A stretch of 64,000 bases of DNA from a virus. Its lineage: Duplodnaviria; Heunggongvirae; Uroviricota; Caudoviricetes. Positions 14,477 to 63,476 of this stretch are shown piece by piece. Where the stretch lies: IMG/VR virus record IMGVR_UViG_3300038499_000012, positions 1-64,000 of that record, one strand, 5' to 3'. The position numbers and the translations under genes were made by a program. Within the stretch, counting starts at the first letter, position 1. Each line of letters begins with the position of its first letter. The notes under the pieces were generated by a model. It was not told the origin of the DNA. It was given only the letters and a program-made list of their open reading frames with translations, and made no database searches.

Positions 14477-16342
14477 ATGATACAAAACGAAATCGACTTC
14501 TGCAGAAAAATTGTTGACCTTGCTGATGCAATCAAATTCCATACCTATTCCGTTCCTGCCGTGACCAAATCCAAACTGAATCCCAAGGGTAAAAAGGCAA
14601 AGCAGAAGGTTTTTCCGGCCTACCGTGCAATTCTCCAACCTGATGGACTTACCTTGTTGCCCCAGCAATATCGTAACGAGAACGTCTTAGAACATGCCTA
14701 CGCCCTTCAATACCGAAACTGTCCAGCCGATACCTCAGAATCCCGAGCAATCTACGGCTCAGATATCCGATTGGAAGTTCGAAAGAAGAAAGAGATCTGG
14801 GTCCGAAATCTTGAAACTCCGCTACTCAATAGCATAGTCTCTTCAGAACTCAGGACCATCAAAAATGCCCTAGCTCTGAGTTCTAAACGGATCCTGGAAT
14901 TCTACCAAAAACGAATGGATGAGTTCACCAATAGGGACCAGAACGGCAACACCCTAGACGATAACGAAGACATCGTATGCGGAATCTTCCTACACATAGA
15001 CTGTTCAATCCTTGGTTACGAACATTGGTACGAGATCCCCGGTGTACTTTCCGCTTCAGATACAGCCGAAATCATGAGGATCACCAACGAAGTTGGTGAA
15101 AAGAAGAAAGAGGCCGCATTTTTGGCCGTACCTGGGGAAGAATGCTATTCACTAGTCAAAAGTCTTCTCAATACGGTTGCATCCGGGGATGAGTCCTCAG
15201 ACAACCAGTTTCAGGATTTTGATTTGGCCGCACGACACAAATCATTCTCGTTAACGTCAGACGATAGACGAATCGTCGCTTTCTATTGGTCAAAAACGAT
15301 GAACATGCTCCGTGTTTCTATTCCCAAGACAAAAGGAGAATATTTCTTCAGAGTTGTGCCGTGCGGTGATTTCAGTCCTATGAATGCCCAAATGTTTATT
15401 GATAACCAAAAAGCATTCAGGGGCAAGTTTGATACCCAAGAGAAAGCCGAAAGTGGGGTATCAGAAGAGGACGATAATATCGAAATTATGCCTGACGAGC
15501 CTATTGATGGGTACGATAAAAAGATCTACAACATGGCCCAACAGGCCCCCTCGGGAATCACCTCGTTCGATATAACCCTTATGCACCGGGAATCCCATGG
15601 ACAGACAAATGTCTCAGAACTATCCAGACTCTACAGAAGTTCGTTCTGCCGGCAACTCAAACGTATCGAGGCGGTCTCGGAAGAAGTCACAAAAAAATAC
15701 AAGTGCACTTGGGAACCCCAGATATGGTCCGCACTGAATACCATCTACTCTCGGTGTGAAAAACGATATCTCAATATCATCGGGCAGATTTTTATGAAGT
15801 TATGGTCCGGAAGCTACAGAGGAATAGCTTCCCTTAAAGAACTTTTTATTGACGGAATACAATACAACATTCGCAATTCGGAAGGGCCTGGTGAATACGC
15901 CCTTCGTGTGGCGTACTTATTCTTGAAAAAACTCAACACAACGGAGGAGCAGATGGATGAAAAATCTTACCGTCTAGGAGAACTCTGTGCCGAGTTCTGC
16001 TGGCCCTTGATCTATCAGATCGGAAGTTTTGATAAGCAGTATTCAGGGTACATCACAAGGAAAGTCAAAAGTGTTGATGAGGTCACTGAGTTCATTGTTT
16101 TCTCCGAGGGAAAACTGATCCTGCATGCAGGTGAAATGATGTATGCCACTGGAAAAGGAGGTCAATTTCCTATCGGAGTAGTTCCAGATACAAGCTACTA
16201 CGCACTGGAAGCTCGAAAGCTCATCAAGGAAGGAATCGAAAAGTTTGATGCGCTTTCCTTTGCCGACGGATACTACTTCATGCGTGGTAACAAATTGTAC
16301 ACTTCCAAAAAAGGAGGCCAGAGTGAAGAATCAAGAGGTTAA
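14477..16342 (+). CDS. putative Cas8-like large subunit (divergent; possibly encodes Cas11 from an internal start)
   Basis: First gene of the cas operon, 621 aa, immediately upstream of cas7 with overlap. I see no recognisable motif; the assignment is positional only. Confidence 0.35.
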   Translation: MIQNEIDFCRKIVDLADAIKFHTYSVPAVTKSKLNPKGKKAKQKVFPAYRAILQPDGLTLLPQQYRNENVLEHAYALQYRNCPADTSESRAIYGSDIRLEVRKKKEIWVRNLETPLLNSIVSSELRTIKNALALSSKRILEFYQKRMDEFTNRDQNGNTLDDNEDIVCGIFLHIDCSILGYEHWYEIPGVLSASDTAEIMRITNEVGEKKKEAAFLAVPGEECYSLVKSLLNTVASGDESSDNQFQDFDLAARHKSFSLTSDDRRIVAFYWSKTMNMLRVSIPKTKGEYFFRVVPCGDFSPMNAQMFIDNQKAFRGKFDTQEKAESGVSEEDDNIEIMPDEPIDGYDKKIYNMAQQAPSGITSFDITLMHRESHGQTNVSELSRLYRSSFCRQLKRIEAVSEEVTKKYKCTWEPQIWSALNTIYSRCEKRYLNIIGQIFMKLWSGSYRGIASLKELFIDGIQYNIRNSEGPGEYALRVAYLFLKKLNTTEEQMDEKSYRLGELCAEFCWPLIYQIGSFDKQYSGYITRKVKSVDEVTEFIVFSEGKLILHAGEMMYATGKGGQFPIGVVPDTSYYALEARKLIKEGIEKFDALSFADGYYFMRGNKLYTSKKGGQSEESRG

Positions 16343-17309
16343 GCAGGTCGAGGTCGAGACCAATGGCGTTAAGAGGGCGGATCTTCTGATTCTGTGGACC
16401 AGCAGAAATTGCATCGTGAACGGTGATCCCTGGACAGGAGAGCAGCGCTATGATGAAGCCACAGGCAGACCTCTGTGCTCTGATGTCAGGCTTAAGGCCT
16501 TCGCCAGATGGTATGCAGACCACATACACCTTTTCGAACCCGGCCATCCTGCTCTGGATGTGTTTTTCAAGGATTTCACGCAGAGTGATATAGCTCTAGC
16601 CAGGGCCGAGAAAGAAGGGGCATCAGGAGCTTCCGTTCGGGTGCGTATGCTCAAGGCCAAGTACAAACCGGAAGAGGACTTGAAGACTCTGGTTCTCAAG
16701 TGCCTCGATTCTCGTGGTTTCGGAAACGTCGTCACGGAGAAGAAGACTCCGGTGCATCTCACAGGCCCGATCCAGTTCGAGCAGCTCAATCCGACTCTGC
16801 ATCAAGTGAAGCTGATGGAAAACCAGAATACCTGTCATCTTCCATCAGATATCAAGAACAATGCAGGAGCAATAGCCACCAGCAGCCTGGTTCCCTTCAG
16901 CATCAACCAAGTGGTCGGCGGGGTCTATTCAATCCTCGCTCTCGAAACCGGCCTGACGGAAGATGATGTCATCCTCATTCTTCGGTGCCTGTGGCGGGGA
17001 ATAAACTGTTACAAGAGCCGGAGCAAGATGGGGCAGAATTCAAGACTGATCTTGAAGATCAACTATCAAGATCTGGCAACAGCAACCGCCGATCTGAATA
17101 CCTTGGTCACACTCAAGAATTCAGAAGACAAAGGCCTTCGCAGAATAGACCAAGCCGTATGGGATTTTTCGAGGCTGGACAATCTCATGAAGGACCCCAA
17201 TGTCGTAACGGTTGAGTATCGTGCGGATTCCTTCATGAAGCCGGTACTCCTGGGTGCCATCTCGAAAGATACGGTTTCTAAAATGGTCGAGTTGCAAGGT
17301 CTCTGGTAA
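16323..17309 (+). CDS. cas7: Cas7 (Cascade backbone subunit; DevR/Csd2/Csh2-like N-terminal motif)
   Basis: GTG start 5 nt after aaggagg; track start 16245 is probably too far upstream. N-terminal NGDPwtgeqRyDeaTGrplcSDVrLKafaRwY resembles the NGDPDxxNxPRiDpeTGxGLVTDVCLKRKIRNY motif of I-B/I-C Cas7 and is also similar to CasC. Confidence 0.55.
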   Translation: MKNQEVKQVEVETNGVKRADLLILWTSRNCIVNGDPWTGEQRYDEATGRPLCSDVRLKAFARWYADHIHLFEPGHPALDVFFKDFTQSDIALARAEKEGASGASVRVRMLKAKYKPEEDLKTLVLKCLDSRGFGNVVTEKKTPVHLTGPIQFEQLNPTLHQVKLMENQNTCHLPSDIKNNAGAIATSSLVPFSINQVVGGVYSILALETGLTEDDVILILRCLWRGINCYKSRSKMGQNSRLILKINYQDLATATADLNTLVTLKNSEDKGLRRIDQAVWDFSRLDNLMKDPNVVTVEYRADSFMKPVLLGAISKDTVSKMVELQGLW

Positions 17310-17638
17310 GAAAAGAGAAGGTAAAGACCTTACACGGAAAAACGTGTAGGGTCTTACCAACTCATAGGAGTACTCGGTCAATTACCACCAGCACAAGGCT
17401 GGAGGCTTGTCCTTCCAAATTTCGTCCAGAGAACGATGACTCTAATGAGTCATAACGGAGGACTATAAGCCAATTGACTGTGGCTCATTATCATACAGCA
17501 TGCTGTATGATAATCACTTGTACTCAGAACTCTGTGAGTACTCGCTACAGTTCCTAAGATACATTATGGAAGAGAGCACGAGTCATTACTCGCTTCCTCC
17601 GCCACCACAAGGGTAGCGGTTTCCGCTCGTGAGGTTTT
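17310..17638 (+). other. structured non-coding spacer inside the cas operon (hairpins and a perfect 28-bp palindrome)
   Basis: No ORF. Imperfect ~16-bp hairpin with 6-nt loop (ggtaaagaccttacacg/cgtgtagggtcttacc) at ~17320-17358. atgactcTAATgagtcat at ~17436-17453. Perfect 28-bp palindrome attatcatacagca|tgctgtatgataat at ~17487-17514. gtactcagAACTctgtgagtac at ~17520-17541. Stem ggaag...cgagtCATTactcg...cttcc at ~17568-17610. Confidence 0.5.
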
Positions 17639-18385
17639 ATGAAAGCCGTAACCATACGAATTTCTGGTAGCCGGGCGCATTTCAAGCGGCCAAATACCAA
17701 CAACAATCCATGTACTTATGCCGTTATTCACAAACCAGCGCTTTTTGGAATCATGGGCGCTGTCTGTGGAATTCAGAGGGCAGAAATGGCATCCCTCTAT
17801 CCTAAGCTGTGCAGTGAAAATAAATCTGACGGCATAAAGATGGCCCTTCGAGTTCTAAATCCTATTTCAAAAGAGGCACATGGATTCACAAAACGAAATG
17901 TCACTCCAGTTCCTGAGCGCCAAGGGGATTTGAAGGGCTTTAAGAACAATTCCCGTGGCAGAAGGTTCTGTGAAGTCCTTCGAGATCCTTCTTATGAGGT
18001 CACACTGGGATCTCAGAATCCTCAATTCGTTGAGATATTATCGACCTTCAAAAATCAGATACTAGCCAATAGGTCGATTTATCCACACTACCTCGGCAGT
18101 ATTAACTGCATGTGTCAGCTGGCCTTCATATCGGACTCAGAAGTATCGGAAGAAAAAAACGGTGAGTTCTCTACCCGACACATTGTTACGAAAACAGGCC
18201 ATGAAATTTCTGACACAGGAGATATGGATATTCTGTGTGAGAATATCCCGATCGCAGAAGATGCCAATAGGAGATACACAGCCACTGCCGATGTCTATTG
18301 TTTCTGGGAAGGCCTACTGGACGTAAAAGGTTCTTATCAGACCATTTCCAACCAAACCGGAGATGCCACAGCATGTTTCATCTAA
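17639..18385 (+). CDS. cas5: Cas5
   Basis: N-terminal ISGSRAHFKRP...ALFGIMGAVCGIQR resembles E. coli CasD (LAGPMQAWGQP...LLGLLGACLGIQR) and the AhFrxP signature of Cas5 proteins. Confidence 0.6.
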   Translation: MKAVTIRISGSRAHFKRPNTNNNPCTYAVIHKPALFGIMGAVCGIQRAEMASLYPKLCSENKSDGIKMALRVLNPISKEAHGFTKRNVTPVPERQGDLKGFKNNSRGRRFCEVLRDPSYEVTLGSQNPQFVEILSTFKNQILANRSIYPHYLGSINCMCQLAFISDSEVSEEKNGEFSTRHIVTKTGHEISDTGDMDILCENIPIAEDANRRYTATADVYCFWEGLLDVKGSYQTISNQTGDATACFI

Positions 18386-20961
18386 GCTCCTATACGCTCA
18401 ACTGCATCTCGCACCCAGGCAAAAAACTCCTTCGTCATTCACAAGGTACGACGAAGGGACTCCTTGATCTATTGCCCAAAATAGCACGCCACTTAAAAAA
18501 AGTTGCTGCTGTGGTGGGCAATTTTCATGATACAGGAAAATTCCTTAATCGATATTTTCAGGACAAGCTTAGAGGAATCCTTTATAAAGACAAGTACACA
18601 CATCACTCCTACCTATCCATGATGTCCCTTTTGGGTTTTTTGCTTCCCGGTAATCATCAATACCGCTCCTACAGGGATATGGTAATAGCCCTGATATGCA
18701 TCATTAAACACCACGGAGGCATTCCGAATCTGGATAAACTAATCAACGACAAAGAACTAAAACAAATGCGGGATTACATCACAGAAGTCCAGTCAAAAGG
18801 ACTTCTTCCAGATATAACGGAATTCAGGCATCAAATAGGATTCGATGGAGACACGAAGCCTGTGTCAGAAATCAAGGACAGCTTGATACGATGTATTTTT
18901 TCTAGGGCAGATAAAATAAACAGCATTTTTACTCGAATCAGCGAGGAAGATCGATTGGGATTTTGGCTTGATTTGAGAATGGTGTTCTCCTGCTTGGTGG
19001 CTGCGGACAAGCAGGATGCAGGAGATCACAAACTTGATATAAATGACAAATTCCTTCGAAAGAAATTTCATAAAGGTATTAAGGCTTACATTGATAATCT
19101 TTCTAAAGTAGTAGCGAAAACGGAGAACGCTAGGAAACTGAACCTTATCCGAACCGAGATGAGAAAAGTGGCGGTACAGAACCTGATAGAAGTCGTAGCC
19201 GCCAATCCTGATAGGCGTCTATTTCAGCTCACATACCCGACAGGAGCGGGAAAAACGGTCATTCTGTACTGCTGTGGCTCGGTGATTCAACTGAAGAAAG
19301 GTTCCCGAAGAATAATATATTCCGTACCTTTTCTTTCTATAACGGATCAGGTTGCTACCATCATAGAGGAAATCTTCCCAAACGAGGAAGATAACATTCA
19401 GCGCATTGATTCCAAGGCCCAACCGGATGAAGATTTGGACTATGACCTGACATCAAGCGGTGATGATGTATCACCCTTGATGGAGGCGCTAAAAAAGTTC
19501 ATAAAAAACTTCATAAAGTTTACACTTAAAAAAGATATCAGTGACATCTCCGCAAACAAAATTCTTAAACAAGAACTCCAGGAGATTTGCTTCTCTTACC
19601 CATTGATCACAACTACATTCGTGCAGATGTTCCAAACTCTGACTACAGCCTCCAACCGTGGACTGATGAGATACAACGGGCTCTCTGGGTGTATATTTCT
19701 GATAGATGAAATTCAGGCCCTCCCACCGAGGCTCTACAACTTTTTAGTGGCACTTCTGGATGCCTTCTGCCGGCGCTTTGATAGCTATGCAGTTATATCA
19801 TCCGCAACAATGCCTTATTTCGATATACCGACGAAGTCAAAAGAAGGCCAGAAAATGTTTCCTGGCTACATGCCCCCTATCGAAATAGGAGACATCAGCT
19901 ACTTTGATGACCCCATCTTCAATCGGTATGATATCGTCGGTATAAAGACCAAGATGACCGTCGATAGTATTGCAGAGAAAATCCGCAAAGAGGAAAAATC
20001 CACTCTAGTGATATTGAACACGAAGAAGGATGCCAAAAGAGTCTATAAAAGAGTCAAAAAGACCGGAGAGGATGCAATTCTGCTTACAAGTTTGAATTGT
20101 GACCGGCAGGATATTTTAGACCTGTGTCAAAAAAAGTTAGATAACCATGAGCGCTTCTTTCTCATATCTACAAATCTCATAGAAGCTGGTGTGGATATCG
20201 ACTTCTGCACAGTATATCGAGAAATAGCCCCCCTGCCGAATATCATTCAGAGCGCAGGTCGAGGTAATAGAAATGGCAATCTCTACCCAGATAGAGCAAC
20301 CATTTATGTTTTTGATTTGATCGACGACAAGGGACGATCCCGATCAAAGTGTATATACAATGGCGATGTCGATGGACCATCCTTAGAATATGCTAAAAAA
20401 ATATTCCTTCTATCCGACAGGATTGCCACACCTGAATTAGAACTCCTGTCCCTTCAAAAGGCTTTCTTTATGGAACAGGGAGAAAATCTCTATTTTGGAA
20501 CTTGGGATTTCTCGATGCCTATCGAGGATGAGGAAGAAGATGAAGAAGAATACAAAACAAAACCAAAAAGGATGAACTTCGTAGATCTCATCAATGGATT
20601 CCAGTATGGAGACATTGGAAGATTTAGGCTGATTCCTGAATGCCGCTACGGAGCGCAGGTTCAATTCTATGTTCCAGAATCGGACGAGGATAAGAGATTT
20701 GAGAAGTTGGTGGAGTATCAGGCCGCGATTCAACAATCGGAAGAAGAGGACGTCCCTATTAAGACAAGGCTGGCTAATAAAAGGAAACTCCATCTACACC
20801 TTCGGGAAATGATGCCTCGGGTAGTTCAGATGAATCTTGGCGAAAAGGACCCTCCTCTTTCAGAGTTAGCAGAGTATGAAGGTATGGTGAGCCATTTGTA
20901 TAAACTAAAGCTGAAATACTACAGTAAGGAATACGGTATAACCTGGGAGGAACAACAATGA
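18373..20961 (+). CDS. cas3: Cas3 (HD nuclease + SF2 helicase)
   Basis: HD motif (VVGNFHDTGKF). Walker A YPTGAGKT. DExQ box LIDEIQALP. SAT motif SATMP. Helicase C-terminus QSAGRGNR. Start taken as the Met overlapping the cas5 stop. Confidence 0.8.
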   Translation: MFHLSSYTLNCISHPGKKLLRHSQGTTKGLLDLLPKIARHLKKVAAVVGNFHDTGKFLNRYFQDKLRGILYKDKYTHHSYLSMMSLLGFLLPGNHQYRSYRDMVIALICIIKHHGGIPNLDKLINDKELKQMRDYITEVQSKGLLPDITEFRHQIGFDGDTKPVSEIKDSLIRCIFSRADKINSIFTRISEEDRLGFWLDLRMVFSCLVAADKQDAGDHKLDINDKFLRKKFHKGIKAYIDNLSKVVAKTENARKLNLIRTEMRKVAVQNLIEVVAANPDRRLFQLTYPTGAGKTVILYCCGSVIQLKKGSRRIIYSVPFLSITDQVATIIEEIFPNEEDNIQRIDSKAQPDEDLDYDLTSSGDDVSPLMEALKKFIKNFIKFTLKKDISDISANKILKQELQEICFSYPLITTTFVQMFQTLTTASNRGLMRYNGLSGCIFLIDEIQALPPRLYNFLVALLDAFCRRFDSYAVISSATMPYFDIPTKSKEGQKMFPGYMPPIEIGDISYFDDPIFNRYDIVGIKTKMTVDSIAEKIRKEEKSTLVILNTKKDAKRVYKRVKKTGEDAILLTSLNCDRQDILDLCQKKLDNHERFFLISTNLIEAGVDIDFCTVYREIAPLPNIIQSAGRGNRNGNLYPDRATIYVFDLIDDKGRSRSKCIYNGDVDGPSLEYAKKIFLLSDRIATPELELLSLQKAFFMEQGENLYFGTWDFSMPIEDEEEDEEEYKTKPKRMNFVDLINGFQYGDIGRFRLIPECRYGAQVQFYVPESDEDKRFEKLVEYQAAIQQSEEEDVPIKTRLANKRKLHLHLREMMPRVVQMNLGEKDPPLSELAEYEGMVSHLYKLKLKYYSKEYGITWEEQQ

Positions 20962-21482
20962 AAGCATTTATTGTCGAGGGCGTCACATTAGGAGAAGACA
21001 GTTATACCAAGCATCAGCAGATTGCCGACCTGATTGATAGCAAAAATACTCGATTCCATGAAAGAGAAGACGGTTCCATCGTTCTTCTCTCAGAAACAAT
21101 GCCTGAGGGATCCAAATACACGGCCGTTGGAATGTCTTATTCTAAGGGTGAGATTCTTTCTTTCTCTATCAGAGCTTGTGTCTCAAAACGGTCAGGGGAT
21201 AAAGAAATTCCAATAACCAATATGACAGAGATAGTCAATTGGATAACCAGAAAGGCCAGAGAAAATGGTTTTGTTATCAACTTTTTTGACAATATTGAAG
21301 GCCCTTGTGTCAGAGATGTGACCAAGCCTGGATTTGTTTTCAAAATCAGTACCGTAGATTTTGCCGGCAACCTTACAGTCCTTGACAAGGACTTATTCGA
21401 CCGGGCCTTGAGAACCGGCATTGGAAGAAAAAAAGCTTTTGGCTGTGGAGTTCTCTGTGTTACGCGTAGTACAGATGTTTGA
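20958..21482 (+). CDS. cas6e: Cas6e (CasE) crRNA endoribonuclease
   Basis: C-terminal G-rich loop GIGRKKAFGCGVLCV matches E. coli CasE GIGPAKSMGCGLLSL. ~175-200 aa. ATGA overlap with cas3. Confidence 0.65.
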   Translation: MKAFIVEGVTLGEDSYTKHQQIADLIDSKNTRFHEREDGSIVLLSETMPEGSKYTAVGMSYSKGEILSFSIRACVSKRSGDKEIPITNMTEIVNWITRKARENGFVINFFDNIEGPCVRDVTKPGFVFKISTVDFAGNLTVLDKDLFDRALRTGIGRKKAFGCGVLCVTRSTDV

Positions 21483-21638
21483 TTTCCCGCCCACGCGGGA
21501 GTTTAATAATGAGACGCACTACTGTGCAGGAAGATCTTTCCCGCGTGACGCGGGAGTTGAATGTATAGAGTGTCGAGAACAGATGCAGCGTCATGATCTT
21601 TCCCGCATCACGCGGGGGTTGAATTAAGAGATTATTAA
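21483..21638 (+). CRISPR. mini CRISPR array (3 repeat-like units, 2 spacers) between cas6e and cas1
   Basis: Units tttcccgcccacgcgggagtttaat, ctttcccgcgtgacgcgggagttgaat and ctttcccgcatcacgcgggggttgaat, separated by spacers of ~28 and ~35 nt. Confidence 0.6.
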
Positions 21639-22797: not shown

Positions 22798-25700
22798 GTC
22801 TTTCCCGCGTCACGCGGGGGTTGAATATTACATTGTCGGGGTATTCGGGGTAGTCGGATGTCTTTCCCGCGTCACGCGGGGGTTGAATGAGTATGCCCCT
22901 TATACCGTAGGAGGAGACCGGTCTTTCCCGCGTCACGCGGGGGTTGAATTGGACTACGTATACGATACCTGTAGGTCTGTCTGGTCTTTCCCGCGTCACG
23001 CGGGGGTTGAATTCCGGTAGATTTGAGATCGTGTATTAGTTGGGGGTCTTTCCCGCGTCACGCGGGGGTTGAATCCCGAGTCCCTGTCTGTCGTAATATT
23101 GTGATCCGTCTTTCCCGCGTCACGCGGGGGTTGAATTATGGGAATAGGTGGGCCATCTATAGTAGTCTGGTCTTTCCCGCGTCACGCGGGGGTTGAATAA
23201 GAACTCTATAGCAGCGTAAGGAACTTTTGTTTTGTCTTTCCCGCGTCACGCGGGGGTTGAATTATCTACCCGACCGGGAATTCTTCCTCGGTCAGGTCTT
23301 TCCCGCGTCACGCGGGGGTTGAATCTTATCAAGTATGTACACAGGGTATGTTGTGGAGTCTTTCCCGCGTCACGCGGGGGTTGAATAATCGTCTGACCGT
23401 GCACGGACGCCCTCGGTTTGGTCTTTCCCGCGTCACGCGGGGGTTGAATGCCTGTGCACGTTATGGATGCAGACTGAGCGGCGTCTTTCCCGCGTCACGC
23501 GGGGGTTGAATATACTCCATGATCGCAGAGTGCATAGCACTGTTGTCTTTCCCGCGTCACGCGGGGGTTGAATCCACTAAATTGATCTATGATCACAGGG
23601 GGAAGTCTTTCCCGCGTCACGCGGGGGTTGAATGCCTGTGCACGTTATGGATGCAGACTGAGCGGCGTCTTTCCCGCGTCACGCGGGGGTTGAATGATGT
23701 GGATTTGAAGAAACTCGATATACCCGATTGTCTTTCCCGCGTCACGCGGGGGTTGAATCATCTTGTCCCCGTTTTTTGTACCGTCATAGTTGTCTTTCCC
23801 GCGTGACGCGGGAGTTGAATCATGGTAACGTCACGTCCAGACCGTGTCGCAGCGTCTTTCCCGCGTGACGCGGGAGTTGAATTCCCCGTGTGGTCAAAGT
23901 GGCTGGTAAAGTTGTCTGTCTTTCCCGCGTGACGCGGGAGTTGAATACAATCAGCTCAGTTCCGAACCGGCAGACGATCGTCTTTCCCGCGTGACGCGGG
24001 AATTGAATTTCCCGAAGTAGTTGGACAGAACTTCGTCCATGGTCTTTCCCGCGTGACGCGGGAGTTGAATATTCCCCCAATCCTCCGTTGTCCAACCCAG
24101 TTTGAGTCTTTCCCGCGTGACGCGGGAGTTGAATCCTACTTCAAACACGGACTTTTCAGCTGGTGGTCTTTCCCGCGTCACGCGGGGGTTGAATATGGAC
24201 GAGGCCTATGTTGATATCTTCAGCAGGTCTTTCCCGCGTGACGCGGGAGTTGAATCATTTCTCCGATACGCCTATGGTCAGATTTATTGTCTTTCCCGCC
24301 TACGCGGGAGTTGAATTGTTTACGATTTAAGAAAAGAGGGCTATTTGGAACATGTCTTTCCCGCCCACGCGGGAGTTGAATACCAAGACACGAATAGAAA
24401 TGGTGTTTCAGTCTTTCCCGCGTGACGCGGGAGTTGAATACTCTCGATTCGTGGTTTTATGCCAGACTATCTGGTCTTTCCCGCGTCACGCGGGGGTTGA
24501 ATCTATTATTCGTTGCTCTCGCAGGAAAGTCTTTCCCGCATCACGCGGGAGTTGAATGTGGTCAAGCGGGTTCTCACCGGATTCTGCGTCGTCTTTCCCG
24601 CCCACGCGGGAGTTGAATCAGCGGAATGCTAACCGGGGCAATATCCATTCCGTCTTTCCCGCGTGACGCGGGAGTTGAATAATCGGCTGTGTAGGAGGGA
24701 GGAGAGTGTGAAGTCTTTCCCGCATCACGCGGGAGTTGAATCCTGTACGATGAGTTCTTCTCCAAGGCGAAGTCTTTCCCGCGTCACGCGGGAGTTGAAT
24801 CTCATCAACAGCGTCAACACGTACCATCAACAGCGTCAACACGTACCGTGGAACGTCTTTCCCGCCCACGCGGGAGTTGAATTGGGGGTATCTATCAACG
24901 GGTCCCCCGTTTTGTTGTCTTTCCCACGTGACGCGGGAGTTGAATTATCATCTGCTTGTATGCCTCAAGGCAGACCTGGTCTTTCCCGCGTAGGCGGGAG
25001 TTGAATAATCCACTACGCAGACGAGATCATTAGTGATAGTGTCTTTCCCGCCTACGCGGGAGTTGAATACCGCCATCATCCGACGCCCGAACCTAGTGGT
25101 GTCTTTCCCGCGTGACGCGGGAGTTGAATTAAACACGGATCTTCGGCGACGACATTACCCAGTCTTTCCCGCACCACGCGGGAGTTGAATATTTCGAACC
25201 TACCTAGGGATAGTAATGAGGTGGTCTTTCCCGCCAACGCGGGAGTTGAATTCTCGAGGCGCTCTTGAAGGTTGTCAACCCGCAGTCTTTCCCGCATCAC
25301 GCGGGAGTTGAATAGGCATCCGAATAACGAAACCAGAAACGTTCTGTCTTTCCCGCCTACGCGGGAGTTGAATTAACCGATTGACTTGTCAAGTGCTAGT
25401 AGTGATGTCTTTCCCGCCTACGCGGGAGTTGAATTACACTCCATATGATCCGGAACCAATCCAGAAGAGTCTTTCCCGCCTACGCGGGAGTTGAATCATA
25501 TCTCCATAAACATTCGTCAAGAAGTTTGGTGGTCTTTCCCGCACTACGCGGGAGTTGAATCATCATGTCGTTCTCGCCAAGGAATGAACGGAATCTTTCC
25601 CGCACCACGCGGGAGTTGAATTGTAGGCCGTCCTACGCGGTTTGGTGGGCACTGCGTCTTTCCCGCCCACGCGGGAGTTGAATAGGCATCCGAATAACGA

Positions 25701-26369
25701 AACCAGAAACGTTCTGTCTTTCCCGCGTCACGCGGGAGTTGAATACAATGTCATCTCAGGGTGGTGTACTGGCGAATCTGTCTTTCCCGCGTGACGCGGG
25801 AGTTGAATCCTTCTGGACATACATGCAGAGACCCAACAAAGGGGTCTTTCCCGCGTGACGCGGGAGTTGAATCCCGTACCCTCGTTCCACGCTATTGACA
25901 CGCCGGTCTTTCCCGCGTGACGCGGGAGTTGAATTTCCTCGGTCGGGAACGTCGTTTCCAGGTCGTCAAGGTCTTTCCCGCCTACGCGGGAGTTGAATAC
26001 GACTATGGGAAGCAAATCAAGGATGTCGTAATCTTTCCCGCATCACGCGGGAGTTGAATGTGGTAGGACCCTGTATCTCAGGCTGTATCTTAGGCCGAGA
26101 AGTCTTTCCCGCCCACGCGGGAGTTGAATCACCGGCGTACAGATGGGTGCTGCCATGCAGCAGTCTTTCCCGCGTAGGCGGGAGTTAAATTATTCGTTTG
26201 TGGACCATGCCTTGACCTAGTCTTTCCCGCGTCACGCGGGAGTTGAATAGCTGCCGCTTCTTTTGCAGCTCTCACCGTCGGTCTTTCCCGCCCACGCGGG
26301 AGTTGAATCACACCCTGCTGGAAGAACGTATGGTCCGTCACTGTCTTTCCCGCGTAGGCGGGAGTTGAA
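22798..26369 (+). CRISPR. CRISPR array, 58 repeats (28-29 nt) and 57 spacers (mostly 32-33 nt); leader on the cas2 side
   Basis: Consensus GTCTTTCCCGCGTCACGCGGGGGTTGAAT with hairpin cccgcg/cgcggg followed by an 8-nt handle (I-E style). Repeats 1-16 are identical; repeats 17-58 carry ...GCGGGAGTTGAAT with many loop variants (TGAC, CTAC, CCAC, ATCAC, ACCAC, CAAC, GTAGG). Degenerate repeat remnants extend to ~26500. Confidence 0.95.
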
Positions 26370-26563
26370 TAGTTGAATAGTTGAATCTAAGAGTAATGGA
26401 AGAATTATTTTGTAGTTACTTTTCCCATCTACATAGAATGGGAGTTAAATAGGCTATATTCGAGGGATCAAATTTCCCGCGTAAGCGGGAGCATTTTATT
26501 ATGTTTTTTGGATACGGGTGTATAATAAGAACGGGTATAAGGAGTATTTCCCGCGTCAAACGG

Positions 26564-49351: not shown

Positions 49352-51212
49352 AGAAGTTCCATCCTACTCCTTTGGCATCCGTAGCCTCGATATGGGTTTG
49401 GTCATCGAGGTCCTACGGTCCAAAATGTACACCAATCCCATACGCATCATCTGCCAGGAAATAGCTGCAAACGCCCGGGATGCAAATCGAGAAGCGGGCA
49501 ATAAGAACAGTCCGATCAAAATCCGTTTTGACCAAAACTTTTTCAACAACAAGGGCTGCAGCATAGTCATAGAAGATGATGGTCCTGGTATCAGCCCTGA
49601 ACGCATGACCGAAATCTTTATCAACTACGGAGCATCAACAAAGCGCCATACCAACACTCAGACCGGAGGATTCGGACTCGGATGTAAGACCCCCTTCGCC
49701 TACACGGACACTTTCACTATCCTGACGAAAGTCGATGGAGTCAAATACACCTATCAGGCTGTAATTGAGAAGAACCGTACCGGAAAGATTTATCTGTTAT
49801 TTCAAGAACCCACTTCCGATCCAAACGGCACCGCCATCATCATTCCAGTTGGAGAGTACGAAAAAAATACCTTCATCAAAGAATGCCATAGGGCTACCCT
49901 TTTCTGGAATCCCAGGCCGGTATTAGATCCAGCTTTTATTACGCCTTTGCCGGCCCTGAAAAAGCATGAGGACAGTTTCATCATAGACACGGGATTCTGT
50001 GGTCTCTACGCCGCGGGTATATACGCTCTTGTGGACGACATACCCTACTTTTTCAACAACAATGATAGCTTCAATAAAATCGCTATTTTTCTCCGATTCA
50101 AGACAGGGGAACTGTCCATATCAGCTAATCGGGAAACGCTGCACATGGACAACGAGACGGAAGAGAAGATCACAAAACGATATAAGAGTTTTGTTGCATC
50201 TTACACAAAAGCTGTTTTCGAAGAGATAGACAAGGCCCCGACATATTATCACGCGGCAATCTTGTATAGTGCTTGTTCCGACAACCCTATAGTGATGGAA
50301 TGCTGTGAAGATCCCAAATGGAATGGCATCCCAATCAAAACTGATTTCAATGATCTTTTTCATTTCTTAAGATTGAAGAAAGGGACACACTTAGAATCCG
50401 TTTATCAAATACCAGCCGATTTTTTGGTTGTTCCTAAGTATATCAATGATGCCAAGTCTTTTCACAAAGCTCGGTTCAATGAAGCCGCGCTTAAACATCC
50501 AGATTCAAAACCATATCTGATATACGCAACGGGTGGTAGTGAAGAAGAAAAAGAAAAGTCCCTTATTGCTCTCCTCAATACATGCGGCAAAACAGAGTTT
50601 CTGTCTTCGATACGCATCCAAAAAAAGTCTTGTTCTATCAGAGAAAAACGAAATACTCTCGTATATCACTGTTCTACTGGATGGCACAGCAGAAATCCGA
50701 TATCTCCACAACGTATAGACTCCACCGCAAAAGGGTACTATATTCCATTCAAGTTCAAAAGAGATCTGACCCAGGAACAGATGTATTGGGGCAGGAATAT
50801 TTCCGCCATATCGAAAGAGAACGTATATTTCGTCAAAGGGCACTCAATAACGGCGTATCCAAACCTCCTACCGTTGTCGGTTGCGGAGAAGAAATATGAA
50901 GAGCAATTCAAAAATCAAGCCCGTTCAGGTGTATTCAAGAAACATGGACTTGACTTAAAACTACTCAGGAAATTGAATTTTCCTAAAGAAATAAAGAAAC
51001 TGATAGGCCCGGATGTTGCGGATGACTTCGTCATAAACGAAAAAATGCTTGCTAAGTACATAACCGAACAAGAAAAGATCGAGATAAAAGGTATTTTGAC
51101 GACATATCCTTTGCTGACTTATTACAATGGCCCTCATACGGAAGAATTCAATAAATACATACAGGTAAACTACCGCCAGGACAAGCCGGCGGCTTTAGAC
51201 CTGAATCCCTGA
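49311..51212 (+). CDS. GHKL-superfamily (histidine kinase-like) ATPase domain protein
   Basis: N-box EIAANARDA, G1 box IEDDGPGISPERMTEIF and G2 box GGFGLGCK; no HisKA/DHp region. Confidence 0.5.
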   Translation: MKLATEAETTTVSEEVPSYSFGIRSLDMGLVIEVLRSKMYTNPIRIICQEIAANARDANREAGNKNSPIKIRFDQNFFNNKGCSIVIEDDGPGISPERMTEIFINYGASTKRHTNTQTGGFGLGCKTPFAYTDTFTILTKVDGVKYTYQAVIEKNRTGKIYLLFQEPTSDPNGTAIIIPVGEYEKNTFIKECHRATLFWNPRPVLDPAFITPLPALKKHEDSFIIDTGFCGLYAAGIYALVDDIPYFFNNNDSFNKIAIFLRFKTGELSISANRETLHMDNETEEKITKRYKSFVASYTKAVFEEIDKAPTYYHAAILYSACSDNPIVMECCEDPKWNGIPIKTDFNDLFHFLRLKKGTHLESVYQIPADFLVVPKYINDAKSFHKARFNEAALKHPDSKPYLIYATGGSEEEKEKSLIALLNTCGKTEFLSSIRIQKKSCSIREKRNTLVYHCSTGWHSRNPISPQRIDSTAKGYYIPFKFKRDLTQEQMYWGRNISAISKENVYFVKGHSITAYPNLLPLSVAEKKYEEQFKNQARSGVFKKHGLDLKLLRKLNFPKEIKKLIGPDVADDFVINEKMLAKYITEQEKIEIKGILTTYPLLTYYNGPHTEEFNKYIQVNYRQDKPAALDLNP

Positions 51213-52410
51213 GCAAGTAACGCTATGACGCGATACAACCTCAAGTCCATAACCCGATCTTTCTTGGGTGTTTACAGACCCCATCCTGCGAAAGCCTTGC
51301 TCTCGCAGGATATATCGTCCCCGTATATTCTTAGAAGCCGTCAGGTCTGCATCTCCTCTGTAGCCGCAGGCCATACATCGGAATTGCAAACCAATACGGT
51401 TCCCCTTAGCAATATGGCCACATTTCGGACACGTCTGAGATGTGTAGGCCGGGTCTACTGTCTCAGTCTTTATGCCTTTCTCGGCAAGCTTATAGCCCGC
51501 CTTGAACTGCAAAGAAGAATACGGCCACCGACAAACCTTCTCTCTAAGGTCCTTGCCCTTTTTCAGAGAAGCTTCTCGGATATTGCTAAGGTCTTCGAAC
51601 ACGACCACCCGAGCATTAGACTTAACGGCGTACTGAGTCAAGGCCTTAGAGGCAACATGCATAAGCTGTTCCGTAATGGCCCTTTCGCGGTGTGCCAATC
51701 GCTGAAGAAGGCGATGGGCCGACCGGGTACCTACGGCTTGAATCTTACTCCGTCGAGTCCTGATACATTTTCTCTGGTGGTTAAGTTTTCCGCCCGAAAA
51801 GAAGAAGGCTTTATTATTGGAGGAGTTCGAGGCAACAAGCATACGCTTGATGCCAGAATCCACTCCAATGATACAGCCCTGTTGAGCAGGTTCAGGGATG
51901 TCTTTTTCGTAGCTCAGAAGCAGGTACAGTTTATTTTTGACTTGTTTAAGTTTCGAGTCCTTCCACGTATTTGTCGGAGCTATGCTCGGGTGATACAAGG
52001 AAATGCGTTCACCCCAAAGGGTGACACCTTTCCCCGACTTGTTGAAGTCCCGTTTCCATACCAGAGGGATCACGGCGTTCTTAAAGACTGCCAGTTTCCA
52101 TCTTTTGTTGGACTTGGCCGTGTTATATGTAGCTGCAATTTGCTTGCAGATACTGCAGGCAAGTTGCGAAGGAAGTTGGAACTTATCACGAAGGACGGGG
52201 TAATGGGCTTTGGCGATGCGATTCGAGTTCAGCTCTTTGGAGTTGAAGACGATAGGCGAGAGCCAGTTAAGGGCCTGGATATAATTTTGGATTATTGTTG
52301 GGGCCTTAGAGGAGCCATTAATTTTGATTTTAGTAGTTCTGATAGTTTTCACGGTAGTAGGTCCTATGTACTACCGTAGTGAATATCGAAAGATTATTAC
52401 GGTATCCGCT
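51050..52410 (-). mobile_element. IS605-family tnpB-only element (IS1341-like); ends approximate
   Basis: TnpB ORF. Subterminal hairpin cggtagta...tactaccg (~52352-52376) at the tnpB 5' end. TTAC next to the 18-bp motif at ~52383-52400. Confidence 0.35.
51195..52352 (-). CDS. tnpB: TnpB (IS200/IS605-family OrfB, RuvC-like RNA-guided nuclease)
   Basis: RuvC-I GVDSGIKRMLV, RuvC-II VVFEDLSNI, zinc finger CPKCGH...CMACG, RuvC-III DADLTASKNI; GTG start. Confidence 0.8.
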   Translation of the reverse strand: MKTIRTTKIKINGSSKAPTIIQNYIQALNWLSPIVFNSKELNSNRIAKAHYPVLRDKFQLPSQLACSICKQIAATYNTAKSNKRWKLAVFKNAVIPLVWKRDFNKSGKGVTLWGERISLYHPSIAPTNTWKDSKLKQVKNKLYLLLSYEKDIPEPAQQGCIIGVDSGIKRMLVASNSSNNKAFFFSGGKLNHQRKCIRTRRSKIQAVGTRSAHRLLQRLAHRERAITEQLMHVASKALTQYAVKSNARVVVFEDLSNIREASLKKGKDLREKVCRWPYSSLQFKAGYKLAEKGIKTETVDPAYTSQTCPKCGHIAKGNRIGLQFRCMACGYRGDADLTASKNIRGRYILREQGFRRMGSVNTQERSGYGLEVVSRHSVTCSGIQV

Positions 52411-52437
52411 CGTGTCACAATCATAAAAGGAGTGATT

Positions 52438-58075: not shown

Positions 58076-58279
58076 TGGACACTCTCCTATGTTATTTAGG
58101 ATAGGATGGGGAACAAACGGGCAGGGGTCTTTCCACATTATCAGTATGAAGTATCCCTACTCCTACGCCACCACCCTAATACTCGACAGCCTCAAAAAAT
58201 AAAGGACAGGGAACAAACAACAAGAGTTTTTTTCGATGATTGAAGTAGCCCTTGTCAACGCCACTGTCCTATTTTATCT

Positions 58280-63431: not shown

Positions 63432-63476
63432 GGACCTGAACCCAAATCAGGTGGGTAGCCATTACCCTACACTCCG
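63395..63476 (-). tRNA. tRNA (type II-like long variable arm; isotype uncertain, anticodon loop TTTGGGT)
   Basis: Cloverleaf: acceptor CGGAGTG/CACTCCG, D-arm GGGT-AATGGCT-ACCC, anticodon stem CCTGA/TCAGG, variable hairpin TCCC-TAAC-GGGA, T-arm GCAGG-TTCGAGT-CCTGT, discriminator A, no encoded CCA. Confidence 0.55.

What the first reader, a model, noticed from the sequence alone, without database searches (positions are those of the whole stretch)
17310..17638. 330-bp ORF-free structured spacer between cas7 and cas5 with a perfect 28-bp palindrome and three further inverted repeats
Cas genes in this operon otherwise overlap or abut. This gap holds a long imperfect hairpin right after the cas7 stop (~17320-17358). 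It also holds atgactcTAATgagtcat, the perfect palindrome attatcatacagca|tgctgtatgataat, gtactcag-AACT-ctgtgagtac, and a compound stem at ~17568-17610. Perfect palindromes suggest dimeric protein operator sites; they could also form an RNA processing or stability element. The gap sits where a cas11 gene would be in I-E. Possibilities include an internal regulatory node, an anti-CRISPR-responsive operator, or a small RNA.
Basis: seen in the sequence. Interest (0 to 1): 0.55.

Follow-up and report, generated by a model that had tools for sequence, protein, structure and literature searches.

The report
Mini transposon inserted before cas5
The "structured spacer" is mostly a 262-bp gene-less mini insertion sequence of the IS200/IS605 family that landed exactly between the ribosome-binding site and the start codon of cas5. 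Its palindromes match the transposon-end hairpins and guide-RNA stems of that family, so they are not likely to be operator sites of the CRISPR operon.

Summary
The gap (17310-17638) and its palindromes are real and far beyond chance. It has two parts of different origin.

(1) 17310-17376 is the native cas7-cas5 spacer. It holds a strong hairpin (17320-17358) that close relatives keep through two compensatory pair changes. It also holds the ancestral cas5 Shine-Dalgarno (SD) sequence.

(2) 17377-17638 is a 262-bp insertion. It is absent from the closest relatives, whose sequence is contiguous across exactly this point.

The insertion is a gene-less derivative of an IS200/IS605 element, a palindrome-associated transposable element (PATE), lying on the minus strand. 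Evidence:
- Subterminal hairpins at both ends and no target duplication.
- Insertion 3' of the target-adjacent motif (TAM) TTCAT, which is the reverse complement of the cas5 ATGAA start.
- Ends shared with copies that encode a TnpA transposase and a TnpB nuclease.
- A TnpB guide-RNA (omegaRNA) scaffold that a covariance model built without the window recovers full length (63.5 bits, E 1.8e-12).

The perfect 28-bp palindrome sits where the family has omegaRNA stem A. The element's left end supplies a replacement SD (GAGG-TTTT-ATG) for cas5.

RNA expression, mobility and any effect on the cas operon were not tested. The operator and cas11-position readings are not supported. This is a new member of a known kind, of modest interest.

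The parts
16323..17309 (+). cas7 (Csh2-type), the upstream neighbour
   Evidence: Pfam Cas_Cas7, 2.9e-27. The 328-aa product equals P0001, which JGI names 'Csh2'.
17320..17358 (+). Native post-cas7 hairpin (stem 17320-17336 / 17343-17358). Likely an intra-operon attenuator or mRNA-stability hairpin; that function is inferred.
   Evidence: Present in L001 and L002 with two fully compensatory pair changes (A-T to G-C, C-G to T-A) against L002. L003 has a GC-rich hairpin plus T-run at the same place. Fold energies are -21 to -30 kcal/mol.
17357..17376 (+). Ancestral cas5 5'UTR with the old Shine-Dalgarno sequence (AGGAG, 17366-17370). Its reverse complement, CGAGTACTCCTATGAGTTGG, is the flank that an omegaRNA read out of the element's right end would carry as its guide.
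   Evidence: In L001 and L002, AGGAGTACTCG is followed directly by the cas5 ATG. The rule that the guide equals the right-end flank comes from Karvelis 2021.
17377..17638 (-). 262-bp non-autonomous IS200/IS605-family element (PATE). Its canonical orientation is the minus strand: left end at 17638, right end at 17377.
   Evidence: blastn shows L002 1614|1615 is contiguous where the window has 17376|17639. The ends are shared with about 20 viral and 53 metagenome loci. It falls in the PATE size class of 215-442 bp.
17639..17643 (-). TAM / TnpA target TTCAT (minus strand), which is ATGAA, the cas5 start codon plus 2 nt
   Evidence: TT[C/T]AT precedes the left end at the 31 non-identical sites for which a motif could be called (21 TTCAT/TTTAT-flanked sequences listed by eye, 31 after extraction). 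The same TAMs were shown experimentally in ISGst elements.
17620..17638 (-). Left-end 5' arm (AAAACCTCACGAGCGGAAA), including the G at -4 from the hairpin foot. On the plus strand it provides the replacement SD GAGG (17631-17634), 4 nt before the cas5 ATG.
   Evidence: LE profile hit. G at -4 goes with TTCAT. L003's native cas5 RBS is GGAGGTTTTATG, with the same spacing. Predicted RBS accessibility is similar to L001 and L002.
17599..17619 (-). Left-end subterminal hairpin (CCGCTACC-CTTGT-GGTGGCGG on the minus strand)
   Evidence: It is 97% identical over 31 nt to the L013 left end.
17515..17598 (-). Left-end-proximal interior with two further hairpins (17568-17600 and 17520-41). It has no homologue in other copies, and its function is unknown.
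   Evidence: Folds. No similarity in 117 loci.
17487..17514 (-). The perfect 28-bp palindrome, which is omegaRNA-type stem A (12-bp stem, 4-nt loop)
   Evidence: A hairpin of variable sequence occupies this position directly 5' of stem B in most family members, both PATEs and TnpB-encoding copies.
17468..17485 (-). Stem B, with loop GTCAAT (minus strand) complementary to the terminal ATTGAC. This is a predicted pseudoknot.
   Evidence: Stem B has 4 pairs with double changes. The pseudoknot is invariant inside the family, but it covaries in the resident TnpB IS (GTAAAC with GTTTAC).
17409..17463 (-). Stem C, with the family's conserved bulged A. Here it carries a 36-nt branched insertion that includes the ATGACTC-TAAT-GAGTCAT hairpin (17436-17453).
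   Evidence: Seven of 9 stem C pairs show double changes in the family. Other copies also carry insertions here (L075, L077, L110, L111).
17377..17405 (-). Right-end hairpin (stem D, 17385-17405) plus the terminal TAATTGAC (right-end cleavage motif TTGAC)
   Evidence: 94-97% identical to the right ends of TnpB-encoding copies. In L026 the TnpB ORF ends at this right end.
17639..18385 (+). cas5, the downstream neighbour. The ORF is intact.
   Evidence: Pfam Cas_Cas5d, 8.4e-4, which is below the Pfam cutoff. Gene calls in L001 and L002 start at the homologous ATG.

Best explanation
Window 17377-17638 is a 262-bp non-autonomous IS200/IS605-family insertion sequence, a palindrome-associated transposable element (PATE), lying on the minus strand.

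Inferred history: a Y1 transposase (TnpA) supplied in trans inserted it as single-stranded DNA 3' of the pentanucleotide TTCAT. On the other strand, TTCAT is the ATGAA at the start of cas5. The element therefore sits exactly between the old cas5 ribosome-binding site and the start codon.

What it keeps (shown):
- Both subterminal transposase-binding hairpins.
- About 138 nt of the right-end guide-RNA (omegaRNA/reRNA) scaffold that full-length relatives encode downstream of tnpB. The 28-bp perfect palindrome, the stem with the GTCAAT loop, the branched stem with ATGACTC-TAAT-GAGTCAT, and the right-end hairpin occupy the positions of scaffold stems A to D.

What follows from that (inferred):
- The left end now supplies a substitute Shine-Dalgarno sequence (GAGG, 4 nt before the ATG), so cas5 probably stays translatable and the insertion is tolerated.
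- If the scaffold is transcribed and a cognate TnpB is present, the RNA would guide cleavage of the empty site (TTCAT + CGAGTACTCC...) in sibling genomes, favouring retention or spread of the element.

The remaining 67 bp (17310-17376) are the native spacer. They hold a conserved hairpin after cas7 that most likely attenuates transcription or stabilises the cas7-proximal mRNA (inferred).
For: Insertion polymorphism:
- L001 (92-98% DNA identity in the flanks) and L002 are contiguous exactly where the window has 262 extra bases. There is no target duplication.
- L003 also has only a 51-bp spacer.

Family membership:
- The first 34 nt (GTCAATTACC-hairpin-CTTG) are 94-97% identical to about 20 unrelated viral contigs.
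- The exact 25-nt right-end core occurs in 19 viral and 53 metagenome stretches.
- In L026 the same ends bracket a Y1_Tnp TnpA (1.8e-37) and a TnpB (Cas12f1-like TNB, 2.4e-22), and the TnpB 3' end abuts this right end.
- Element sizes fall into classes of 47-48 nt, 215-442 bp, 1.25-1.36 kb and 1.65-1.70 kb.

Target rule:
- TT[C/T]AT precedes the left end at the 31 non-identical left-end sequences for which a motif could be called.
- The third TAM base covaries perfectly with the base 4 nt 5' of the left-end hairpin foot: TTCAT with G in 12/12, TTTAT with A in 14/14, and the window has G with TTCAT.
- This is the guide/cleavage-site pairing described for IS608 TnpA (PMC3201880).

Guide-RNA scaffold:
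- On 23 relatives, with the window excluded, 96.7% of cells are paired and 12 pairs show double changes. No shuffle out of 500 reached these values, and slid controls gave 19-47% paired.
- The covariance model built from those relatives hits window 17377-17487 (-) full length at 63.5 bits, E 1.8e-12.
- A hairpin at the stem A position is present in most members.

Literature:
- PATEs lacking genes often encode omegaRNAs used in trans, and TTTAT and TTCAT are known TAMs (Meers 2023).
- The reRNA is about 150 nt, made of the right end plus a 16-nt flank-derived guide (Karvelis 2021).
Against: - No TnpA and no close (L026-type) TnpB is present in the 64-kb window. The resident TnpB at 51195-52352 (-) is only 25% identical to the L026 type, and its right end scores 17.5 bits with the model. 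A cognate nuclease or transposase for this copy is therefore not shown.
- No sigma-70-like promoter was found on the minus strand of the insert, and there are no expression data. Production of an omegaRNA is unproven.
- The right-end hairpin carries a T.T mismatch against the perfect family consensus, which may mean the copy is decaying.
- The interior left half has no homologue anywhere.
- Covariation counts come from related sequences and can be inflated by shared ancestry. E-values from the shortened calibration are rough.
Confidence: 0.9

Rival explanations
1. Exapted element. The insertion began as a PATE but now serves the cas operon. It might act as an antisense RNA against the cas7-cas5 junction, as a structured 5'UTR that tunes cas5-cas3 translation, or as a guide RNA used by the phage's own TnpB.
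For: The left end provides a good SD at the same spacing as L003's native cas5 RBS. SD-like motifs occur in the left-end tip only in copies that sit on real ORF starts (window, L008, L099). The phage carries a TnpB gene. The omegaRNA scaffold keeps family-specific details such as the bulged A in stem C.
Against: It is a single lineage-specific insertion, absent from the closest relatives, so there is no evidence of selection for it. The resident TnpB belongs to a distant family at 25% identity. No promoter was detected.
Confidence: 0.07
2. Native regulatory node of the cas operon. The palindromes are operators for dimeric regulators, or Aca-type anti-CRISPR-responsive sites.
For: Perfect and near-perfect palindromes lie in a non-coding stretch inside an operon.
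Against: The region is absent from homologous operons. Each palindrome maps to a stem of a transposon-borne RNA scaffold or to a transposase-binding hairpin, and the sequences of these stems covary across unrelated loci. No regulator gene is adjacent.
Confidence: 0.02
3. CreTA-like or mini-CRISPR RNA module (a degenerate repeat-spacer-repeat toxin/antitoxin or cas-regulating RNA), or a hidden small protein (cas11 or an anti-CRISPR) in the gap.
For: Such modules are known to sit in intergenic gaps inside type I cas operons (own knowledge: Haloarcula creTA). The gap size is similar.
Against: The best match of the 29-nt CRISPR repeat to the gap is 14/29, the same as random windows. There is no ORF of 40 aa or more inside the gap. 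The cas11-like module is the Cas8 C-terminus. No Rfam family scored above noise.
Confidence: 0.01

Closest known systems
PATEs (palindrome-associated transposable elements): gene-less IS200/IS605 derivatives, e.g. those in Geobacillus stearothermophilus described with ISGst2/ISGst5 (Meers et al. 2023)
   Same: No coding capacity. LE and RE subterminal hairpins are shared with TnpA/TnpB-encoding copies. TAM is TTCAT or TTTAT. There is no target duplication. The right-end guide-RNA scaffold is retained and would need TnpB in trans.
   Different: The end sequences are unrelated to any cultured-organism IS that I could find. No GenBank phage record carries these ends. The exact 25-nt right-end core is absent from 185,579 species-representative genomes, and a relaxed pattern hits only six MAG stretches. 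This copy sits in a phage-type contig, inside a CRISPR-Cas operon.
ISDra2 / IS608 (archetypal IS200/IS605 elements with TnpA + TnpB and a right-end RNA)
   Same: Single-strand 'peel and paste' architecture: a hairpin 18-19 nt from the LE boundary and 8 nt from the RE boundary (own recollection for IS608: 19 and 10). Cleavage sites are read by a guide base 5' of the hairpin foot. The guide RNA is about 140-150 nt and ends at the RE.
   Different: Different TAM (TTCAT, against TTGAT and TTAC). L026-type TnpB is no more than 40% identical to any GenBank phage TnpB. The window copy has lost both genes.
REP/BIME elements mobilised by RAYT (TnpA-REP) transposases
   Same: Short hairpin-forming, Y1-transposase-related non-coding repeats. 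The 47-48-nt 'solo' LE/RE-fused hairpins of this family (L012, L047, L065, L088, L099) resemble REPs.
   Different: The window element is a two-ended 262-bp unit with an RNA scaffold. It is not a clustered high-copy REP, and there are no other copies in the 64-kb window.
CreTA / cas-operon-embedded small RNA modules
   Same: A non-coding, structured insert of about 300 bp between type I cas genes.
   Different: It has no CRISPR-repeat-like sequence, is not conserved in homologous operons, and has transposon ends.

Membership tests
IS200/IS605-family non-autonomous element (PATE) | Subterminal hairpins at both ends on the same strand, with no terminal inverted repeats | tested here: met
   Hairpins at 17599-17619 and 17385-17405 share the loop CTTGT (minus strand). 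They lie 19 and 8 nt from the boundaries.
IS200/IS605-family non-autonomous element (PATE) | Insertion without target-site duplication, 3' of a conserved tetra- or pentanucleotide | tested here: met
   Empty sites in L001 and L002 define the exact boundaries with no duplication. TT[C/T]AT flanks the left end at the 31 non-identical sites where a motif could be called.
IS200/IS605-family non-autonomous element (PATE) | The cleavage site is read by a guide base 5' of the hairpin foot (target/guide covariation) | tested here: met
   TTCAT goes with G at -4 (12/12). TTTAT goes with A at -4 (14/14). The window has G with TTCAT. At the right end, the third base G of TTGAC faces C at -4, read by eye. 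The mechanism is described in PMC3201880.
IS200/IS605-family non-autonomous element (PATE) | The same ends bracket Y1 TnpA and/or TnpB in autonomous relatives | tested here: met
   L026 has Y1_Tnp at 1.8e-37 and a TnpB TNB domain at 2.4e-22. L009 has a TnpB fragment. Copies of 1.25-1.70 kb contain ORFs of 381-407 aa (only L026 and L009 were checked with Pfam).
IS200/IS605-family non-autonomous element (PATE) | No protein-coding capacity of its own | tested here: met
   No ORF of 40 aa or more with a start codon. The longest open frame is 55 codons.
IS200/IS605-family non-autonomous element (PATE) | Mobilisable by TnpA (excision as an ssDNA circle, then reintegration) | not testable with these tools
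   This needs an excision assay, or junction reads from the source metagenome. No tnpA is present in the 64-kb window.
TnpB omegaRNA / reRNA | A structured scaffold of about 100-150 nt that ends at the RE boundary, with the guide taken from the flank | tested here: met
   A model built without the window hits 17377-17487 (-) full length at 63.5 bits. With stem A the scaffold spans 17377-17514. The architecture is shared by more than 40 copies.
TnpB omegaRNA / reRNA | Secondary structure supported by covariation | tested here: met
   Stems B and C have 11 pairs with double changes, with 0 of 500 shuffles matching and low slid controls. Stem D and the pseudoknot are nearly invariant within the family, so they are uninformative there.
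TnpB omegaRNA / reRNA | Transcribed and bound by a cognate TnpB | not testable with these tools
   No expression data. No promoter-like site on the minus strand. The only TnpB in the window is 25% identical to the family's TnpB.
Conserved cis-regulatory / operator region of the cas operon | Presence and conservation in homologous operons | tested here: not met
   Absent from L001, L002, L003 and L004. Only the post-cas7 hairpin is conserved.
CreTA-like / mini-CRISPR RNA | Degenerate CRISPR repeats flanking a spacer-like segment | tested here: not met
   The best repeat match is 14/29, equal to the background level.
cas11 small-subunit gene | An ORF of about 100-150 aa at this position | tested here: not met
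   No ORF here. L003's 136-aa ORF between cas8 and cas7 aligns to window Cas8 residues 497-599, E 2e-9.

The most novel reading that the evidence does not exclude
The PATE is an active RNA-guided drive element in a phage population. Under this reading it is transcribed from the minus strand, and its omegaRNA pairs with a TnpB supplied by a co-resident or co-infecting element. That complex cuts sibling phage genomes carrying the empty TTCAT|CGAGTACTCC site between cas7 and cas5, so the insertion, and the linked CRISPR-Cas allele, spreads by recombinational repair.

More broadly, this mostly virus-borne IS605 family, through its TTCAT TAM, systematically lands on ATGAA start codons and evolves left-end tips that act as ribosome-binding sites.
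Probability: 0.12. Interest if true: 0.6.

Novelty: new member of a known kind. Interest (0 to 1): 0.35.

Why it matters
This result removes a tempting false lead, an 'operator-rich regulatory node' inside a phage CRISPR operon, and replaces it with a concrete, testable object.

It documents a family of IS200/IS605 elements known so far only from uncultivated viral and metagenome contigs. The family includes TnpA+TnpB, TnpB-only, PATE and solo-hairpin forms.

It gives a sequence-only demonstration of the TnpA target/guide code: the third TAM base covaries with the base at -4 from the hairpin foot.

It also shows how a TAM that is the reverse complement of ATGAA places elements exactly between a ribosome-binding site and a start codon, where the element's tip can take over as the Shine-Dalgarno sequence.

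For annotation pipelines, it is a reminder that long perfect palindromes in intergenic gaps may be guide-RNA stems of mini-transposons.

Tried and rejected
- Rfam, gathering threshold on the whole window and E-value mode on 17200-17750: only noise in the gap.
- Six-frame translation and ORF listing of the gap: nothing of 40 aa or more with a start codon. A hidden or recoded small gene was not pursued further.
- Other copies of the insert in the window: none. Only the two hairpins themselves matched.
- Megablast of the cas locus against GenBank phages, and blastn of the insert against the same: no match.
- Cas7-based locus search in viral contigs: no relatives.
- Exact scan of the 28-bp palindrome core in viral contigs: zero hits, so the stem A sequence is private to this copy.
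- CRISPR-repeat similarity (CreTA or mini-array idea): background level. No array spacer shares 12 nt or more with the insert.
- Sigma-70 promoter and intrinsic terminator scans of 16900-18000: nothing in the insert on either strand.
- TnpA search in the window by tblastn: none.
- Interior homology of the insert to 117 fetched loci: none beyond the ends.
- Group I/II intron, retron and integron attC readings were considered. They were dropped because the boundaries, hairpin geometry and associated genes fit IS200/IS605, and no Rfam ribozyme or intron model matched.

Full report
CONTEXT

The window carries a type I cas operon on the plus strand:
- cas8: 14477-16342, no Pfam hit.
- cas7: 16323-17309, Csh2-type.
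- The gap: 17310-17638.
- cas5: 17639-18385.
- cas3: ends at 20961.
- A Cas6e-type gene: 20958-21482.
- A three-repeat mini-array.
- cas1 and cas2.
- A CRISPR array of more than 50 repeats, from 22798 to about 26370.

Surrounding genes are phage-like or accessory. No GenBank phage resembles the locus.

CHECKING THE OBSERVATION

- The hairpin at 17320-17358.
- ATGACTC-TAAT-GAGTCAT at 17436-17453.
- The perfect 14+14 palindrome at 17487-17514.
- A 7-bp stem at 17520-17541.
- A compound stem at about 17568-17600, followed by a hairpin at 17599-17619.

No ORF of 40 aa or more with a start codon lies inside the gap. Folding energies are far below shuffled controls: z = -5.6 and -5.4 for the two strands of the insert, and z = -9.0 for the whole gap. 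The near-equal z-scores on both strands show that the signal is DNA-level dyad symmetry.

THE GAP HAS TWO PARTS

A Cas7 search found three relatives with contigs. L001 and L002 have Cas7 that is 89% and 88% identical. L003 and L004 have Cas7 that is 40% identical.

All relatives have the same gene order but only 51-77 bp between cas7 and cas5. In L001 and L002 the spacer consists of the same post-cas7 hairpin followed by AGGAGTACTCG and then the cas5 ATG.

blastn shows that L002 positions 1614|1615 are contiguous where the window has 17376|17639. L001 is 92-98% identical in both flanks. Window 17377-17638 is therefore a precise 262-bp insertion with no target duplication, placed between the ancestral Shine-Dalgarno sequence and the start codon of cas5.

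THE NATIVE PART (17310-17376)

The hairpin after the cas7 stop is kept in L001. In L002 it is kept through two fully compensatory pair changes. L003 has a GC-rich hairpin with a T-run at the same place. All four fold at -21 to -30 kcal/mol.

I infer an intra-operon attenuator or mRNA-stabilising hairpin that would favour Cas7 over downstream products. This was not tested.

WHAT THE INSERTION IS

A degenerate scan for the two similar hairpins, followed by blastn, gave the first lead. The first 34 nt of the insert (GTCAATTACC-hairpin-CTTG) are 94-97% identical to sequences in about 20 unrelated IMG/VR contigs. The other end matches several of them as well.

In longer copies, the strand opposite to the cas genes encodes a protein ending next to this terminus with the motif HSDVNAARNI. 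In L026 that ORF is a TnpB (Cas12f1-like TNB, 2.4e-22; OrfB_IS605), and it is preceded by a divergent Y1 transposase (Y1_Tnp, 1.8e-37).

So the GTCAATT end is the right end (RE) of an IS200/IS605 element, and the window copy lies on the minus strand.

Element sizes in the fetched loci fall into four classes:
- 47-48-nt solo hairpins in which LE and RE are fused.
- Gene-less elements of 215-442 bp. There are eight, including this one.
- TnpB-only elements of 1.25-1.36 kb.
- TnpA+TnpB elements of 1.65-1.70 kb.

Gene-less IS605 derivatives that keep the ends and often the guide RNA are known as PATEs (Meers et al. 2023).

TARGET RULE AND MECHANISM SIGNATURE

A profile of the left end (LE) found the element flanked by TT[C/T]AT at the 31 non-identical left-end sequences for which a motif could be called. 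One PATE (L041, L044 and L072) has TTCAG instead. The window has TTCAT, which on the plus strand is the cas5 ATGAA.

The third base of this motif covaries perfectly with the base 4 nt 5' of the LE hairpin foot. TTCAT goes with G in 12 of 12 cases. TTTAT goes with A in 14 of 14 cases. The window has G.

At the right end, the third base G of the terminal TTGAC faces a C at the equivalent -4 position (read by eye). In the window's second, resident element, a terminal TTTAC faces an A (read by eye).

This is what is expected if TnpA reads its cleavage sites through a guide sequence 5' of each hairpin, as shown for IS608 (PMC3201880). TTTAT and TTCAT are experimentally defined TAMs in ISGst elements.

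THE PALINDROMES ARE GUIDE-RNA STEMS

On the minus strand, the last 110-140 nt of more than 40 distinct copies share one layout:
- Stem A: a long hairpin of variable sequence.
- Stem B: its loop GTCAAT is complementary to the terminal ATTGAC, giving a predicted pseudoknot.
- Stem C: it has a conserved bulged A.
- Stem D: this is the RE hairpin.
- The terminal TAATTGAC.

I aligned 23 relatives with the window excluded. On that alignment 96.7% of cells pair and 12 pairs show changes on both sides. None of 500 shuffles reached these values, and slid controls gave 19-47% pairing.

A covariance model built from that alignment recovers window 17377-17487 (-) full length at 63.5 bits, E 1.8e-12. It places a 36-nt insertion in the loop of stem C.

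- The 28-bp perfect palindrome is stem A.
- AGCCA/TGGCT with the ATTGAC loop is stem B.
- GTCCTTCC/GGAGGAC enclosing the ATGACTC-TAAT-GAGTCAT hairpin is a branched stem C.
- 17385-17405 is the RE hairpin.
- 17599-17619 is the LE hairpin.

The scaffold length (17377-17514, 138 nt) fits the reRNA of about 150 nt described for ISDra2. In that system the last 16 nt or so of the RNA come from the flank (Karvelis 2021). Here that flank would be CGAGTACTCCTATGAGTTGG.

CONSEQUENCE FOR THE CAS OPERON (INFERENCE)

The insertion separates the old SD from the ATG. The LE tip reads GTGAGGTTTT-ATG on the plus strand, which is GAGG four bases before the start. This is the same arrangement as L003's native GGAGGTTTTATG. 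Predicted accessibility of the SD and AUG is similar to L001 and L002.

All cas ORFs are intact. No terminator-like site is created. The insertion is therefore most likely tolerated. Whether it changes cas5 or cas3 dosage is unknown.

START-CODON TARGETING

Of 15 independent TTCAT sites, eight have an ORF of 70 aa or more beginning at the complementary ATG. They are cas5 (248 aa), L027 (218), L013 (178), L008 (144), L066 (135), L099 (107), L011 (85) and L014 (73). About 3.5% would be expected per site for random sequence (own arithmetic).

SD-like motifs in the LE tip (GAGG, GGAG, AGGAG) occur only in three of these eight copies and in none of the TTTAT copies. The numbers are small. The pattern is compatible with survival of only those insertions that leave genes expressible.

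WHAT IS NOT SHOWN

- No tnpA and no close tnpB is present in the 64 kb.
- The window has a resident TnpB-only element at 51165-52422 (-). Its TnpB is 25% identical to the L026 type, and its RE scores only 17.5 bits.
- That resident element's pseudoknot partners covary with the family's (GTAAAC with GTTTAC, against GTCAAT with ATTGAC). Its LE arm shares CACGAGCGGA[A/T]ACCG with the PATE. Cross-use of the two is untested.
- No promoter-like site is seen on the minus strand of the insert.
- The RE hairpin carries a T.T mismatch against a perfect family consensus.
- Transcription of the scaffold, TnpB loading, and present-day mobility therefore remain inferences.

DISTRIBUTION

- The exact 25-nt RE core is absent from 185,579 species-representative genomes.
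- A relaxed pattern hits six stretches on five MAG contigs.
- The exact core is found in 19 viral stretches.
- It is found in 53 metagenome stretches.
- No cultured-phage record carries it. The nearest GenBank phage TnpBs are no more than 40% identical.

RIVALS

- A conserved operator or regulatory node fails the conservation test.
- A CreTA or mini-CRISPR module fails the repeat test: 14/29 matches, equal to background.
- A cas11 gene fails. There is no ORF here, and L003's separate 136-aa gene between cas8 and cas7 aligns to the C-terminus of the window's Cas8 (E 2e-9).
- Exaptation of the element by the phage cannot be excluded, but it has no positive evidence.

VERDICT

Its main interpretation is not. 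The gap is a native hairpin-containing spacer plus a PATE of an IS200/IS605 family, with an omegaRNA-type scaffold, inserted at the cas5 start codon. This is a new member of a known kind, of modest interest. Its value lies mainly in a clean example of TAM-directed insertion at start codons and in an uncultivated, mostly virus-borne IS605 family.

Noticed in passing
window 51165-52422 (-): A second, resident IS200/IS605-type element of 1258 bp that is TnpB-only. The ORF is 51195-52352 (-), with Pfam TNB at 3.3e-20. The TAM is TTTAT at 52423-52427. The RE is ...CCGCCGGCTTGTCCTGGCGGTAGTTTAC. Its LE faces the SD and ATG of the plus-strand gene starting near 52437. Its LE arm shares CACGAGCGGA[A/T]ACCG with the cas-operon PATE.
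   Followed up: partly
window about 21480-21626: Three degenerate CRISPR repeats (two short spacers) sit in the 156-bp gap between the Cas6e-type gene and cas1, separate from the main array. L003 and L004 have no such gap after cas6. This could be a regulatory or remnant mini-array.
   Followed up: no
window 22798-26370: The main array contains at least three repeat variants (…GCGTCACGCGGGGG…, …GCGTGACGCGGGAG…, …GCC[C/T]ACGCGGGAG…). It also has duplicated repeat-spacer-repeat units: 23421-23511 equals 23605-23695, and 25298-25356 equals 25668-25726.
   Followed up: no
window 17368-17376 and 17536-17544: CGAGTACTC occurs both in the cas5 5'UTR next to the element's right end and inside the element. 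It contains the palindrome GAGTACTC, and these are its only two occurrences in 64 kb. This is unexplained. The chance is about 0.002, calculated post hoc.
   Followed up: partly
window 17365|17366 compared with L001 3290-3299 and L002: The window lacks 8-10 bp (TAACACCAAT in L001, ACACGAAT in L002) 11 nt upstream of the insertion point. That position lies inside the segment a right-end guide RNA would match. It could be a repair scar or simply unrelated.
   Followed up: no
L012, L020, L038, L047, L065, L088, L099, L103: 47-48-nt 'solo' units made of the LE arm, one hairpin and the RE tail (e.g. GATCTTATGCCAAGAAAA-CCACCAGCCTTGTGCTGGTGG-TAATTGAC). They are still flanked by TT[C/T]AT. They may be products of recombination between the LE and RE hairpins, or REP-like minimal elements.
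   Followed up: partly
window 14477-16342; L003 9526-9936: The 136-aa ORF between cas8 and cas7 in L003 aligns to residues 497-599 of the window's 621-aa Cas8 (E 2e-9). The small-subunit-like module is therefore fused in this operon and separate in the distant relative.
   Followed up: partly
window 56609-58138 (-) and 63395-63476 (-): A Ro60/TROVE-domain protein (Pfam 1.7e-15, with a below-cutoff vWA_Ro60 match at 1.4e-4) is encoded in a phage-like context. A tRNA gene lies nearby. No Y-RNA family reached the Rfam threshold.
   Followed up: no
window 38.7-47.9 kb (-): Several large minus-strand ORFs carry collagen-like 18-nt periodic repeats and repeated modules of about 150 bp. They are probably tail-fibre or receptor-binding proteins.
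   Followed up: no
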